Source of the DNA: Patescibacteria group bacterium
Lineage (GTDB): Bacteria > Patescibacteriota > Patescibacteriia > SG8-24
DNA: 64,000 nucleotides
Assembly (NCBI GenBank): GCA_034716415.1
Contig: JAYEJB010000043.1
Location: 705-64,704, forward strand
Direction: 5' to 3'
In this document: in pieces, positions 11,869-13,764 of the stretch
Layout of the letters: each line of letters opens with the position of its first letter
How positions within the stretch are numbered: position 1 is the stretch's first letter
Notes under the pieces: model-generated
The model's input: only the letters and a program-made list of their open reading frames with translations
Database searches by the model: none
Told to the model about the DNA's origin: nothing
Program-made: the position numbers and the translations under genes

Positions 11869-13764
11869 TTATATAGTCTCCGGATTCCTGTCTATTATAT
11901 GGTCTTCCGGTAGGCTGTTCAACAGCTCTCCGACTTTCTGCGGGATCGCTTTGGGTGTCTTGATGGCCACGACGCGCCTGTATGTACCGTCACGAAACGG
12001 ACGTTTAGGCTTCAGCGGACCGGCGACCGAAGTGCCGGAACCGATGAGCGAGCGCTCTGCCTCCATCTTGAACTCCCGCGCGCGGCGTTCGGCCCGATTT
12101 TCGTCATCCTCCCTGATCGTCACCGTTATGAGATTACCTGACGGCGGGTAGCTGGACTTGAATCGGCTCTCGGCCTCTACCCGCATGAATGCGTCGGTGT
12201 CCGCCAGCAGTCGCCGGATTTTGGAGCTTTCCGGATCGACAGTCTGCAATAACAGGTCTGCCCCGCTCGATGCGGCGATATCGCGCATCAGCCGCACCGC
12301 CCTCCATGCGTCTTCCATGACGCGGAATCCGGGGTGGGCCAGTAGTCCGTCCGTGTCGACCGCCACCACACAACCCCAGTCGGTCCCTTCGTAGTCATTC
12401 TCGGCCGCGTCATGCAGCAGGAGCCGTGTCCCGACGTAGATGTCGGCGTCTCCCGGCAGGGCACCGCTCCCGTCAGACGGGACAGATTCGGAATCGTGTC
12501 GGCAGACTCTGGCGTCCGGGAACATCCGGTCCAGTGCGTCAGCGACTGAGGTCGTGCCCATGCCGACTGGTCGGAGCGTCGTTCCGCCGCATTTGGCGCA
12601 ACGGTCAGGTGCTTGCCGTTTGGTATCGCAACGCCGGCAGTGCAGTGTTTCATCGGTGAAAGATTCCGCTATACCGCAACGATCGCAGCGGAATACCTGT
12701 CCGCAATCAGCGCAGGCGAGCGCGCCCGCCGAACCTTTGCGGTTAAGGAACATTAGCACTTTTTTGCCCTGATGTAAAGAGTCGCGAATACGCTCGACGG
12801 CTACCGGGGACAGGGGATTATCCCGCCCAAGCGGATTGCCTGAAACATCAACAAGACTAGCTCCTAAGCTCCTTAGCTCCTTAGCTCCTAAGCTTTCCGT
12901 ATAGTCGAATTCACCCGCCTTCACCTTCGCGTACTCTTCAAGTCGCGGTGCGTGCGACATGAAGACCACGTCCGCACCGGAGTGTTCGGCCCGGAAGCGC
13001 GCTACTTCCCGCGCGTCATAACGCGGATTCTGGTCATATTGGCGCAGGTCTCCGCTGTCCGATTCGAGCAAGAGGAACAATCCTGGGTTCCTGATCGGAG
13101 CGAACACGGCAGGGCGGCCGCCTACGACGATGACCTGCTCTCGAGCGAGGATATCCCCCCAGGCGCGGCGCAGTTTGGCGTCAGCGGTCCGACCGCTGAC
13201 GCGGATGATCGGTATTTCCTTGAATTTCCTTTCGAGCTTCGCCGCGATATCATCAACCTCCCCGACATGCGGCGTGACGATTACCGCGCTACGACTCTCT
13301 TCGATCGTCTTTTGTATCACCCGCACGGTTTCCTCAAGCTTTTCACTCGGGCTAGCGTATCTAATGACGGACCTCTGTTTTTTTCTATTATAACTTTCTG
13401 ACTCTCTCACTTTCTCACTTTCTAACTCTCTCACGACCAGTGTCTTCGGTGTCCGTGGCAGGAACGCCTTCAGTGCCGTTGCCGGTGCCACGAAATATCT
13501 CGCCGCCATCCATTCGGGAAGGCGCGTCAAATCTTCTCCCAATGCATGCAGATCACCGAGTCCCAGTATCTCCTTGATCGATTTCGCGTCGATTTCCGGC
13601 TTCTCGTTCGCCTTTATGACCAGGCCATCTACGGGACGACCGCGCCAGGGGACCACGATCCAACTGCCGCGTTTCACAAAATCGCGATACTCATCAGGTA
13701 TCGCGTAGTCGAACGCCCTGAGCGTCCTCGGCAGTTTTACGGCAGGGATGACTTTGGCGAACAT
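11869..13764 (-). CDS. priA: primosomal protein N' (PriA) homologue with degenerate ATPase motifs
   Basis: N-terminal 3'-DNA-binding-like region and the Cys-rich zinc region CADCGQVFRCDRCG...HCRRCD...CAKCGG. Motif Ia is conserved (AVIVTPHVGEV). The Walker A, Walker B and arginine-finger positions are not conserved (see findings). Confidence 0.7.
   Translation of the reverse strand: MFAKVIPAVKLPRTLRAFDYAIPDEYRDFVKRGSWIVVPWRGRPVDGLVIKANEKPEIDAKSIKEILGLGDLHALGEDLTRLPEWMAARYFVAPATALKAFLPRTPKTLVVRELESEKVRESESYNRKKQRSVIRYASPSEKLEETVRVIQKTIEESRSAVIVTPHVGEVDDIAAKLERKFKEIPIIRVSGRTADAKLRRAWGDILAREQVIVVGGRPAVFAPIRNPGLFLLLESDSGDLRQYDQNPRYDAREVARFRAEHSGADVVFMSHAPRLEEYAKVKAGEFDYTESLGAKELRSLGASLVDVSGNPLGRDNPLSPVAVERIRDSLHQGKKVLMFLNRKGSAGALACADCGQVFRCDRCGIAESFTDETLHCRRCDTKRQAPDRCAKCGGTTLRPVGMGTTSVADALDRMFPDARVCRHDSESVPSDGSGALPGDADIYVGTRLLLHDAAENDYEGTDWGCVVAVDTDGLLAHPGFRVMEDAWRAVRLMRDIAASSGADLLLQTVDPESSKIRRLLADTDAFMRVEAESRFKSSYPPSGNLITVTIREDDENRAERRAREFKMEAERSLIGSGTSVAGPLKPKRPFRDGTYRRVVAIKTPKAIPQKVGELLNSLPEDHIIDRNPETI

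What the first reader, a model, noticed from the sequence alone, without database searches (positions are those of the whole stretch)
11869..13764. PriA homologue with all three ATPase signature motifs degenerate (predicted helicase-dead PriA)
- The ORF aligns by eye with PriA throughout: motif Ia AVIVTPHVGEV ~ ALVMVPEIGLTPQ, and the Cys4-type zinc region CADCG..CDRCG...CRRCD...CAKCGG.
- The Walker A position reads RYASPSEK instead of GVTGSGKT.
- The Walker B position reads LLLESDSGD instead of IVIDEEHD.
- The arginine-finger position reads IAASSGADL instead of VAGRAGRAG.
- The missing Walker A segment is replaced by a low-complexity stretch (ELESEKVRESESYNRKKQRS) encoded by simple-repeat DNA (ctctctcactttctcactttct at 13400..13430).
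- An ATPase-inactive PriA has been reported for Deinococcus. Here it suggests a loader or scaffold role rather than a helicase role in replication restart.
Basis: partly seen in the sequence, partly recalled or inferred. Interest (0 to 1): 0.55.

Follow-up and report, generated by a model that had tools for sequence, protein, structure and literature searches.

The report
Motor-dead PriA replication-restart protein
This gene from an uncultured ultra-small (Patescibacteria/CPR) bacterium is the genuine counterpart of PriA, the protein that restarts stalled DNA replication; it has lost every residue needed to burn ATP but keeps its DNA-fork-binding parts, so it probably works as a passive fork-recognition adaptor, as one earlier case (Deinococcus) does.

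Summary
ORF 11869-13764(-) encodes a 631-aa PriA homologue (KpPriA 4NL4 E=1e-52; AF2 model TM~0.75 to PriA structures). Residues invariant in 47 canonical PriAs in helicase motifs I, II, III, V and VI are all replaced, and no GK[TS], DExH or RxGR occurs elsewhere in the protein.

Two corrections:
- The Walker A register is YASPSEKL, so the lysine survives.
- The low-complexity peptide is a variable linker where E. coli has the winged-helix domain. It does not replace Walker A.

The state is neither an assembly error nor a pseudogene:
- An independent assembly is base-identical.
- Twelve full-length relatives share the motif state, with conserved synteny in six related loci.
- At least 130 further short PriA cluster representatives lack motifs I and VI.

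Retained features are the 3'-end pocket (D19, Y20, K64), the eight zinc cysteines, the C-terminal domain and an invariant aromatic-rich loop (LRQYDQNPRYDAR).

Relatives with intact motors occupy the same priA-def-fmt slot, so this is the orthologue, with its motor lost in situ. It is also the fastest-diverging gene of its block.

Best reading: an ATP-independent fork-recognition scaffold, a new variant of the PriA pseudohelicase known from Deinococcus. Biochemistry, partners and the rest of the genome remain untested. Interest is moderate.

The parts
11869..13764 (-). priA* ORF, 631 aa: PriA orthologue without ATPase motifs
13456..13764 (-). 3'-DNA-binding domain (aa 1-103). The 3'-end pocket residues D19 and Y20 are invariant in the clade and K64 is present in 10 of 12 (Ec D17, Y18, K61).
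   Evidence: Pfam PF17764 58 bits; residue table
13375..13455 (-). Variable low-complexity linker (aa 104-130) in place of the winged-helix domain and WH-HD linker of E. coli PriA. It contains the ELESEKVRESES peptide.
   Evidence: 24% identity; near-constant length in the 12 full-length relatives; pLDDT <50 at residues 115-120
13393..13434 (.). Imperfect 8-nt tandem repeat (ACTTTCTC x5.2) inside the linker coding region
   Evidence: identical in the independent assembly
13336..13359 (-). Degenerate motif I / Walker A position: YASPSEKL against GVTGSGKT (aa 136-143)
13258..13275 (-). Motif Ia equivalent TPHVGE (aa 164-169); P165 and H166 are invariant in the clade
13057..13068 (-). Degenerate motif II / Walker B position: LESD against DEEH (aa 233-236)
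13009..13047 (-). Aromatic-rich loop / motif IIa equivalent LRQYDQNPRYDAR (aa 240-252). It is invariant or nearly invariant in the clade at every position except A251 and corresponds to Ec K328-Y335, the fork-junction contact.
   Evidence: PMC5175346
12949..12957 (-). Degenerate motif III position: SHA against SAT (aa 270-272)
12589..12714 (-). Cysteine-rich region (aa 351-392) with four CxxC pairs; all eight Cys are invariant
12409..12432 (-). Degenerate motif V position: GTRLLLHD against GTQMLAKG (aa 445-452)
12268..12291 (-). Degenerate motif VI position: LMRDIAAS against QVAGRAGR (aa 492-499); both arginine fingers are lost
11872..12144 (-). C-terminal domain (aa 541-631), ending in the conserved LPxxxIxDrNPE
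   Evidence: Pfam PriA_C weak at 17.9 bits; aligned to PriA structures up to residue 620; clade conservation
11289..11756 (-). def (peptide deformylase), immediately downstream; part of the conserved priA-def-fmt slot
10091..11041 (-). fmt (methionyl-tRNA formyltransferase); part of the conserved priA-def-fmt slot
13887..14702 (-). LigB/Memo-like gene immediately upstream on the same strand; syntenic in all degenerate-clade loci

Best explanation
priA* is the organism's PriA orthologue. It has lost ATP binding and hydrolysis, and therefore translocation and unwinding, but is kept under selection as an ATP-independent replication-fork recognition and adaptor protein.

Shown
- The full PriA fold is retained, minus the winged-helix domain.
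- The residues retained are those that in E. coli PriA:
  - contact the fork junction (aromatic-rich loop);
  - build the zinc-bound CRR, which together with HD2 and the CTD forms the lagging-strand ssDNA pore.
- All nucleotide-contacting motif residues are replaced.
- The gene sits in the ancestral priA-def-fmt slot.

Inferred
- The protein still binds abandoned forks and D-loops.
- It marks the lagging-strand template and recruits the replicative helicase DnaB.
  - Recruitment could be direct, as reported for Deinococcus PriA.
  - It could also go through an unidentified adaptor.
- Any clearing of a duplex lagging arm would be left to other helicases.
For: Homology and fold
- phmmer against 4NL4 gives E=1e-52.
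- The AF2 model has pLDDT 84.9 and pTM 0.86.
- Foldseek top hits are all PriA with TM ~0.75. They include the engineered E. coli delta-WH PriA 6DCR.

Motor loss
- There are no DEAD, Helicase_C or ResIII hits.
- Short PriAs of the same layout with intact motifs do hit all three.
- In 47 canonical PriAs these residues are 100% invariant: G227, S228, G229, K230, T231, D320, E321, A357, T358, Q540, K544, G545, Q580, G583, R584, G586 and R587. All are replaced here and in the 12-member clade, except the Lys (K142) and the motif II Glu (E234).
- No motif occurs elsewhere in the protein.

Selection rather than decay
- There are 12 intact full-length relatives at 35-68% identity.
- The clade has 83 invariant columns. 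HD1 and HD2 are as conserved as the DNA-binding domains.
- Synteny is conserved in six related loci.

Retained DNA-handling residues
- D19 and Y20 are kept in 12 of 12 and K64 in 10 of 12.
- The loop RQYDQNPRY is kept in at least 11 of 12, and all eight Cys in 12 of 12.
- The roles of these residues come from PMC5778457, PMC5175346 and PMC10175261.

Orthology
- Intact-motor PriAs P0225 and P0240 occupy the same priA-def-fmt slot.
- P0225's locus also shares the M23-GluRS-WecG...ClpB neighbourhood.

Precedent
- E. coli priA300 (K230R) supports restart.
- D. radiodurans PriA is ATPase-dead yet binds forks and DnaB (PMC4504706 and PMC5778457).
Against: - There is no biochemical test.
- K142 (Walker A Lys) and E234 (second motif II residue) are retained, so residual nucleotide binding cannot be excluded from sequence alone.
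- Only 64 kb of the genome, plus 10-22 kb from each relative, was visible. A second canonical PriA or a compensating helicase elsewhere is therefore not excluded.
- No partner gene (DnaB, loader, SSB, PriB/DnaD-like) lies in the window.
- PriA* is the fastest-diverging gene of its syntenic block. This is also what a gene drifting towards a different function would show.
- The AF2 alignment had only 12 sequences.
Confidence: 0.72

Rival explanations
1. The protein is still an NTPase or helicase that uses a non-canonical active site, for example K142 and E234 plus residues recruited from elsewhere.
For: - K142 aligns with the Walker A lysine and is K or R in all 12 clade members.
- E234 aligns with the motif II glutamate and is invariant.
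- The RecA-like lobes are as conserved as the other domains.
Against: - All P-loop glycines and the Thr/Ser are lost, with Pro and Glu inserted in the loop.
- The motif II Mg-binding Asp is replaced by Leu.
- Both motif VI arginine fingers, the motif V Lys-Gly and the motif III Ala-Thr are lost.
- A single K230R change already abolishes E. coli PriA ATPase (PMC4504706).
- There is no hit to any helicase or P-loop Pfam model.
Confidence: 0.07
2. The protein has been repurposed: it is a PriA-derived DNA-structure-binding protein that no longer acts in replication restart (for example in recombination control or regulation).
For: - It shows the fastest divergence among syntenic genes: 25% against 33-47% for its neighbours when compared with a canonical-PriA relative.
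- The clade-specific invariant motif LE[SA]DSxDLRQYDQNPRYDxR differs from the canonical ARL context.
- In relatives it lies near lexA, with a conserved operator-like element.
Against: - It keeps exactly the residues canonical PriA uses for fork recognition (3'BD pocket, ARL, CRR, CTD).
- It occupies the ancestral priA slot.
- No other PriA was seen in the available sequence.
- CPR genomes are small and rarely keep redundant genes (own knowledge).
Confidence: 0.15
3. It is a decaying pseudogene or a functionless remnant.
For: - It has lost all catalytic motifs.
- NCBI annotates it only as 'hypothetical protein'.
- It contains simple-sequence repeats inside the ORF.
Against: - Intact ORFs of 613-658 aa are present in 12 full-length relatives down to 35% identity.
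- The clade has 83 invariant columns, including all zinc ligands.
- More than 130 further degenerate cluster representatives are also full length.
- No frameshift or stop is present, and the gene is syntenic in six related loci.
Confidence: 0.03
4. It is an assembly or sequencing artefact in the 13.38-13.43 kb repeat that removed the Walker A segment.
For: The 8-nt period repeat is not a multiple of 3 and could promote slippage.
Against: - Walker A does not map to the repeat. It maps downstream at aa 136-143.
- An independent assembler gives the identical 2545 bases.
- All 12 full-length relatives have a linker of the same length and the same motif state.
- Motifs II, III, V and VI, far from the repeat, are also degenerate.
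Confidence: 0.01

Closest known systems
Deinococcus radiodurans PriA pseudohelicase (Lopper, Boone & Morrow 2015, PMC4504706)
   Same: - It is a PriA orthologue with degenerate Walker A and B motifs.
- It lacks ATPase and helicase activity, as measured experimentally, yet binds ssDNA, forks and DnaB.
- It is interpreted as retaining the replisome-reloading role without a motor.
- It is the only lineage cited as an exception in the 2017 review (PMC5778457).
   Different: - It comes from a different phylum.
- The Deinococcus-Thermus signature is a K-to-R change in GKT plus poor matches in motifs I and II.
- Here the Lys is kept, but every glycine, the Thr, the motif II Asp, and motifs III, V and VI are erased, and there is no WH domain.
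- Independent origin is inferred from the intact-motor relatives in the same slot. No Deinococcus sequence was available for direct comparison.
Canonical PriA (E. coli / K. pneumoniae; PDB 4NL4, 6DGD, 8FAK)
   Same: - It shares the 3'BD, two RecA-like lobes, the CRR with 8 Cys, the CTD and an aromatic-rich loop after motif II.
- TM is ~0.75 and sequence identity 22-24% over ~650-750 alignment columns.
   Different: - There is no WH domain; about 100 residues are missing between the 3'BD and HD1.
- Motifs I, II, III, V and VI are all non-functional by sequence.
- It scores just below the TIGR00595 cutoff.
- Of the PriB-contact residues only D438 (D353) and T482 (T395) match; S481 and H483 do not.
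Engineered E. coli variants priA300 (K230R) and delta-WH PriA (PDB 6DCR)
   Same: - K230R is ATPase- and helicase-dead yet supports the PriA-PriB restart pathway in vivo (PMC5778457).
- The delta-WH protein is the second-best structural match of the model.
- The natural protein combines both states.
   Different: - They are laboratory constructs in a PriB/DnaT/DnaC background.
- K230R fails in the PriA-PriC pathway.
- The partners available in this organism are unknown.
Intact-motor, WH-less short PriAs of other candidate-phylum genomes (P0159 Torokbacteria; P0225, P0226, P0252, P0327 labelled Patescibacteria/Parcubacteria)
   Same: - They have the same length class (~650-670 aa).
- They have the same 3'BD-to-HD1 layout without a WH domain and the same KQxDQNPRYxAR-type loop.
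- They occupy the same priA-def-fmt slot.
   Different: - They keep GxGKT, DEEH and GRxGR, and they hit the DEAD, ResIII and Helicase_C Pfam models.
- They are only ~25% identical to PriA*.

Membership tests
PriA (primosomal protein N', replication restart protein) | N-terminal 3'-DNA-binding domain with a 3'-end pocket | tested here: met
   PF17764 scores 58.2 bits against a cutoff of 22.7. D19 and Y20 are invariant in the clade and K64 is present in 10 of 12.
PriA (primosomal protein N', replication restart protein) | Two RecA-like SF2 helicase lobes (fold) | tested here: met
   AF2 model with pTM 0.86. Foldseek against PriA structures gives E as low as 6e-41 and TM ~0.75.
PriA (primosomal protein N', replication restart protein) | Functional SF2 ATPase motifs I (GxGKT), II (DExH) and VI (QxxGRxGR) | tested here: not met
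   The sequences are YASPSEKL, LESD and LMRDIAAS. There is no such motif anywhere else in the protein. There are no DEAD, Helicase_C or ResIII hits.
PriA (primosomal protein N', replication restart protein) | Cysteine-rich region with four CxxC pairs binding two Zn ions | tested here: met
   C351, C354, C360, C363, C376, C379, C389 and C392 are invariant in the clade and present in at least 130 of 132 further short PriAs. Zinc binding itself was not tested.
PriA (primosomal protein N', replication restart protein) | PriA C-terminal domain | tested here: inconclusive
   PF18074 scores 17.9 bits, below the 26.9 cutoff. However, the sequence and structure alignments to PriA run through residue ~620, and the terminal DxDP-like DrNPE is conserved.
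PriA (primosomal protein N', replication restart protein) | Winged-helix domain between the 3'BD and the helicase core (E. coli type) | tested here: not met
   Only a 27-residue variable linker lies between the 3'BD and HD1. The WH domain is also absent from intact-motor short PriAs, so it is not universal to the family.
PriA (primosomal protein N', replication restart protein) | Curated equivalog score (NCBIfam TIGR00595) | tested here: not met
   It scores 222.5 bits against a cutoff of 230.35. This narrow miss explains the 'hypothetical protein' annotation.
PriA (primosomal protein N', replication restart protein) | Orthologous genomic position (priA-def-fmt) | tested here: met
   def and fmt lie directly downstream. 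The arrangement is the same for degenerate relatives and for intact-motor relatives.
PriA pseudohelicase (Deinococcus type) | Clear descent from PriA with loss of Walker A/B consensus | tested here: met
PriA pseudohelicase (Deinococcus type) | No ATP hydrolysis and no duplex unwinding | not testable with these tools
   This needs purified protein. It is predicted from the sequence only.
PriA pseudohelicase (Deinococcus type) | Retained ssDNA and fork binding, and interaction with cognate DnaB | not testable with these tools
   DNA-contact residues are conserved. No dnaB gene is available in the window.
PriA pseudohelicase (Deinococcus type) | Common ancestry with the Deinococcus-Thermus degenerate PriAs | not tested
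   No Deinococcus sequence was held. The described signature differs (K-to-R in GKT), and intact-motor relatives in the same slot argue for an independent loss.

The most novel reading that the evidence does not exclude
Loss of the PriA motor is a recurrent, lineage-wide evolutionary outcome and not a Deinococcus curiosity.
- A large radiation of candidate-phylum (Patescibacteria-type) bacteria carries motor-less PriA.
- Judging from the sequences seen here, Actinobacteria-type PriAs do as well.
- In these lineages replication restart would run on an ATP-independent PriA.
- The invariant LE[SA]DSxDLRQYDQNPRYDxR loop of this clade may have become a new functional surface, for example for direct DnaB or SSB recruitment.
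- If so, fork recognition and adaptor function would be PriA's universal core role, with the helicase an optional accessory.
Probability: 0.3. Interest if true: 0.65.

Novelty: new variant of a known kind. Interest (0 to 1): 0.48.

Why it matters
- Here a second, apparently independent and more radical motor loss is documented.
  - It sits in the true orthologous slot.
  - It is shared by a sizeable family of uncultured bacteria with minimal genomes.
- The pattern of what is kept (3'-end pocket, aromatic-rich loop, zinc region, CTD) and what is discarded (every nucleotide-contacting residue and the WH domain) works as a natural deletion experiment on what PriA minimally needs.
- It gives a compact, testable protein for asking how DnaB is reloaded without PriA translocation and without known PriB, DnaT or PriC partners.
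- On the practical side, such genes fall just under the curated priA cutoff and are deposited as 'hypothetical protein'. Replication-restart capacity of these genomes is therefore under-annotated.

Tried and rejected
Searches that gave little
1. The second homologous-protein run, using a 49-sequence alignment of diverse degenerate PriAs, re-scored the same candidate pool and gave no new names.
2. Two cluster-member runs on 20 representatives yielded only two organism names: Torokbacteria and Margulisiibacteriota, both intact-motor. The taxonomy of the wider degenerate family therefore rests on a few labelled members (Patescibacteria, Parcubacteria, Uhrbacteria) plus synteny.
3. Literature searches for PriA together with CPR or Patescibacteria, and for degenerate PriA in Mycobacterium, found nothing relevant. 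Absence from this library does not prove the case is unpublished.
4. The KpPriA structure paper, needed for the SSB-tail pocket residues, was not held. SSB-pocket conservation was therefore not assessed.

Ideas considered and rejected
5. A second PriA in the window: tblastn with E. coli, Bacillus-type and CPR PriAs finds only this gene.
6. A frameshift artefact at the repeat: rejected.
7. 'CPR-wide loss of the PriA motor': I entertained this after and rejected it, which showed many intact-motor PriAs labelled Patescibacteria or Parcubacteria.
8. A paralogue rather than the orthologue: rejected on positional orthology.
9. SOS control of priA*:
   - The GAAC-N7-GAAC element is conserved upstream of lexA.
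   - Its count in the window is not above chance.
   - In this genome it lies 1.1 kb from the operon.
   - This is left as a side note.

Other checks and caveats
10. PADLOC and PHROGs scans of the unannotated ORFs gave nothing, apart from a dGTPase-like HD protein.
11. The NJ tree has no support values, and long-branch effects are likely. It is used only as a hint.
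Full report
**What is there.**
- Window 11869-13764 (minus strand) is an intact 631-aa ORF.
- It is followed on the same strand by peptide deformylase (11289-11756) and Met-tRNA formyltransferase (10091-11041).
- It is preceded by a LigB/Memo-like gene (13887-14702).
- The exact protein is deposited as 'hypothetical protein U9Q03_03545 [Patescibacteria group bacterium]'.

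**Is it PriA?** Yes, by sequence and by fold.
- Pfam finds the PriA 3'-DNA-binding domain at 58 bits (cutoff 22.7) and a weak PriA_C hit.
- NCBIfam TIGR00595 scores 222.5 bits against a cutoff of 230.35. This narrow miss explains the uninformative annotation.
- phmmer against the PDB gives K. pneumoniae and E. coli PriA at E ~1e-52 to 1e-47 over residues 140-620.
- An AlphaFold2 model built on 12 relatives has pLDDT 84.9 and pTM 0.86.
- Its nine best Foldseek hits in the PDB are all PriA, with TM ~0.65-0.76. The second is the engineered E. coli winged-helix-deletion protein 6DCR. The next best fold, Mfd, scores E ~1e-9.

**Are the ATPase motifs really gone?** I used the HMMER register and a 218-sequence alignment anchored on E. 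coli PriA.

| Motif | E. coli | This protein |
|---|---|---|
| I (Walker A) | GVTGSGKT | YASPSEKL |
| II (Walker B) | DEEH | LESD |
| III | SAT | SHA |
| V | GTQMLAKG | GTRLLLHD |
| VI | QVAGRAGR | LMRDIAAS |

- In the 47 canonical PriAs of the same alignment, these residues are invariant: G227, S228, G229, K230, T231, D320, E321, A357, T358, Q540, K544, G545, Q580, G583, R584, G586 and R587.
- A regular-expression scan finds no GK[TS], DExH/D or RxGR anywhere else in this protein. In its 12 relatives there are only stray RxGR and DESD matches away from the motif positions.
- There is no hit to DEAD, Helicase_C or ResIII.
- Short PriAs of the same architecture but with intact motifs (P0159, P0168) hit all three models. 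This serves as a positive control.

- The Walker A register is shifted by one, so the lysine (K142) is in fact retained.
- The low-complexity peptide ELESEKVRESES... does not replace Walker A.

**The low-complexity stretch and the repeat.**
- Residues 104-130 form a linker between the 3'BD and the first RecA-like lobe.
- In the 12 full-length relatives the linker has nearly the same length but almost no sequence conservation: 24% identity against 46-58% for every folded domain.
- The model has pLDDT below 50 at residues 115-120.
- The linker stands where E. coli PriA has its winged-helix domain (residues 109-181) and the WH-HD linker (PMC5778457). The protein is naturally WH-less.
- The DNA repeat is real: ACTTTCTC x5.2 at 13393-13434.
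- An independent Logan assembly of the same run is identical over window 11301-13845.
- The motifs lost lie far from the repeat. An assembly artefact is therefore excluded for practical purposes.

**Relatives.**
- Thirteen close relatives (P0001-P0013; 35-68% identity; 613-658 aa apart from the N-terminally truncated P0010) carry only the 3'BD Pfam hit.
- They share the same motif replacements.
- The 12-sequence alignment has 83 invariant columns. These include:
  - all eight CRR cysteines;
  - D19 and Y20 of the 3'-end pocket;
  - most of the block E234-x-x-S237-x-D239-x-R241-Q-Y-D-Q-x-P247-R-Y-D-x-R252.
- This block spans the dead motif II and the aromatic-rich loop (ARL). The E. coli ARL (K328-Y335) crosslinks to the fork junction (PMC5175346).
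- The most conserved element of a motor-less PriA is thus a DNA-junction contact.
- Five species-representative genomes carry the clade's signature peptides. They are labelled Uhrbacteria, Parcubacteria group, Patescibacteria group, 'bacterium' and 'Gammaproteobacteria'. The last is a probable mislabel.
- Where the fetched DNA reaches (L006 and L007 are short contigs), they share the gene order ...M23 peptidase-GluRS-WecG-ClpB-LexA-LigB-like-PriA*-Def-Fmt-Wzy-GT2-GT2-GT4-flippase.
- A more distant member, P0080 (34% identity), has the same order.

**How wide is the phenomenon?**
- A profile search of 1.84 billion cluster representatives returned 9264 PriA-like proteins at E<1e-30.
- The top 150 are almost all single-stretch matches of 600-670 aa.
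- Classification of the 217 proteins then held, plus E. coli PriA, gave these counts:

| Class | Count |
|---|---|
| Lacking motifs I, II and VI | 106 |
| Lacking I and VI but keeping an acidic motif II remnant | 57 |
| Canonical | 53 |

- In 132 short degenerate representatives outside the close clade the retained positions are as follows:
  - the Cys ligands are kept in 130-132 of 132;
  - the ARL Pro in 132 of 132;
  - the ARL Arg in 125 of 132;
  - the ARL Tyr or Phe in 130 of 132;
  - Y18 in 130 of 132.
- The mixture of states suggests stepwise decay: motifs I and VI first, then motif II. The window's clade is at the most degenerate end.
- An NJ tree without support values places the few intact-motor short PriAs near the base of the degenerate radiation.
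- Motor loss is not universal in these bacteria. A search with the intact Torokbacteria PriA found many 650-670-aa PriAs with DEAD, Helicase_C and ResIII hits in genomes labelled Patescibacteria or Parcubacteria.

**Orthologue or extra paralogue?**
- The intact-motor PriAs P0225 (MAG GCA_028699085.1) and P0240 (848-kb contig) sit in the same priA-def-fmt slot.
- P0225's locus also shares M23-GluRS-WecG upstream and ClpB nearby.
- PriA* is therefore the positional orthologue of a working PriA. The motor was lost in situ.
- tblastn with four PriA queries finds no other PriA in the 64-kb window.
- PriA* is the most diverged gene of its block:

| Compared with | PriA* identity | Neighbours |
|---|---|---|
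| L008 (intact-motor relative) | 25% | 33-47% (Def, Fmt, GluRS, WecG, M23) |
| L003-L005 | 48-51% | 50-76% for all but GT4 (43-52%) |
| L012 | 34% | 42-66% |

- This fits relaxed or shifted constraint after motor loss, while the ORF and fold are maintained.

**Mechanism (inference).**
- In E. coli the domains work as follows (PMC5778457, PMC5175346, PMC10175261):
  - the 3'BD pocket holds the nascent leading-strand 3' end;
  - HD1 and its ARL contact the junction;
  - the CRR, HD2 and CTD close into a pore around 8-9 nt of lagging-strand ssDNA.
- ATPase-dead K230R PriA (priA300) still supports the PriA-PriB pathway.
- D. radiodurans PriA is naturally ATPase- and helicase-dead yet binds forks and DnaB.
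- PriA* keeps exactly the fork-handling residues and none of the nucleotide-handling ones.
- The most likely model is a structure-specific fork and D-loop sensor that recruits the replicative helicase without translocating.
- Forks with a duplex lagging arm would need another helicase.
- Partners are unknown. No dnaB, loader, ssb, priB-like or recG gene lies in the window.
- Of the E. coli PriB-contact residues, D438 and T482 have identical counterparts (D353, T395), while S481 and H483 do not.

**Known or new?**
- The concept of a PriA pseudohelicase is published for Deinococcus-Thermus (PMC4504706).
- The 2017 review names Deinococcus as the exception to helicase conservation.
- Full-text searches found no report of motor-less PriA in CPR/Patescibacteria. 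This does not prove absence.
- The present case differs from the Deinococcus description:
  - The Lys is kept but the rest of the P-loop is erased.
  - Motifs III, V and VI are also lost.
  - There is no WH domain.
- It appears to be an independent loss.
- I rate it a new variant of a known kind, of moderate interest. It is solid and extends a known exception into a sizeable uncultured radiation, but it is not a new kind of system.

**Limits.**
- There is no biochemistry.
- Only 64 kb of the genome was visible.
- Taxonomy of the wider family rests on few labelled members.
- The tree has no support values.
- The SSB-pocket residues could not be checked because the paper was not held.

Noticed in passing
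window 15807-15821 (-); L003, L004 and L005 lexA-proximal intergenic regions: - The 15-mer GAACAAAAACCGAAC (GAAC-N7-GAAC, a direct-repeat LexA-box-like element) overlaps the predicted start of lexA (15816-16487).
- It is identical in three related genomes. There it lies in a 146-174-bp divergent intergenic region shared with the LigB-like-priA*-def-fmt block, so SOS control of priA* is possible in those relatives.
- In this window a 1.1-kb insert with two small membrane-like ORFs (15112-15366, 15472-15759) separates the two.
- The motif count in the window is not above chance (2 found, 3.2 expected).
   Followed up: partly
window ~7000-9600: - A low-GC stretch (0.44 against ~0.55) carries three ORFs (7031-7825, 8291-8560, 8557-9597) between the Wzy-like gene and fmt.
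- It has no counterpart in the syntenic loci L003-L006 and L012.
- It has no Pfam, PADLOC or PHROGs hit.
- It looks like a genome-specific insertion of unknown nature.
   Followed up: partly
P0067, P0068 (Kineococcus, Rhodococcus), P0069, P0053, P0060-P0066; also long forms P0170 (807 aa) and P0203 (735 aa): - PriA homologues from Actinobacteria and unnamed relatives also lack GK[TS] and the motif VI arginines.
- They carry a different ARL signature (APYPHAR or PTWHAR) and hit only the 3'BD Pfam model.
- Two long PriAs are degenerate as well.
- Motor loss in PriA may be more widespread than the literature read here states.
   Followed up: partly
window 56087-59050 (-): A 987-aa fusion of a UvrD/REP helicase (N- and C-terminal domains) with a C-terminal PD-(D/E)XK nuclease (AddA/AdnB-like). 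It is a candidate for DNA-end or fork processing in this genome. No link to priA* was tested.
   Followed up: no
window 12859-12894 (inside priA*, aa ~291-302) and 13799-13832 (upstream intergenic): - Two further 8-nt-period tandem arrays occur here: AGCTCCTA x4.5 and CTCCTATA x4.2.
- The first coincides with a 4-residue insertion (SLGAKELRSLGAS region) shared only by P0001-P0003, which suggests an in-frame duplication.
- Three 8-nt arrays within 1 kb is unusual and remains unexplained.
   Followed up: partly
L007 (CAZAOV010000036.1): The contig is labelled 'uncultured Gammaproteobacteria bacterium', yet it carries the same ClpB-LexA-LigB-like-PriA*-def-fmt synteny at 46-75% protein identity to the window. 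The taxonomic label is probably wrong.
   Followed up: no
window 35729-36955 (-): An HD-domain protein (408 aa) matches the PADLOC dGTPase defence model (E=1e-18) and a PHROG of unknown function. It may be a housekeeping dGTP triphosphohydrolase or an anti-phage dNTP-depletion enzyme.
   Followed up: no
window 27000-41300: - This stretch is dense in ORFs without Pfam hits.
- It includes three consecutive ~226-aa predicted lipoproteins with signal-peptide-like N-termini and a Cys (38577-39257, 39357-40043, 40544-41221).
- The whole 64-kb window has no tRNA gene and no Rfam match.
   Followed up: no
P0021, P0148, P0128, P0129 and other 'aBr' sequences: Some short PriAs keep a DEEQ/DDE-type motif II and a partial DEAD-profile hit starting after motif I, while lacking GKT and the arginine fingers. 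They look like intermediate stages of motor decay and could be used to order the losses.
   Followed up: partly
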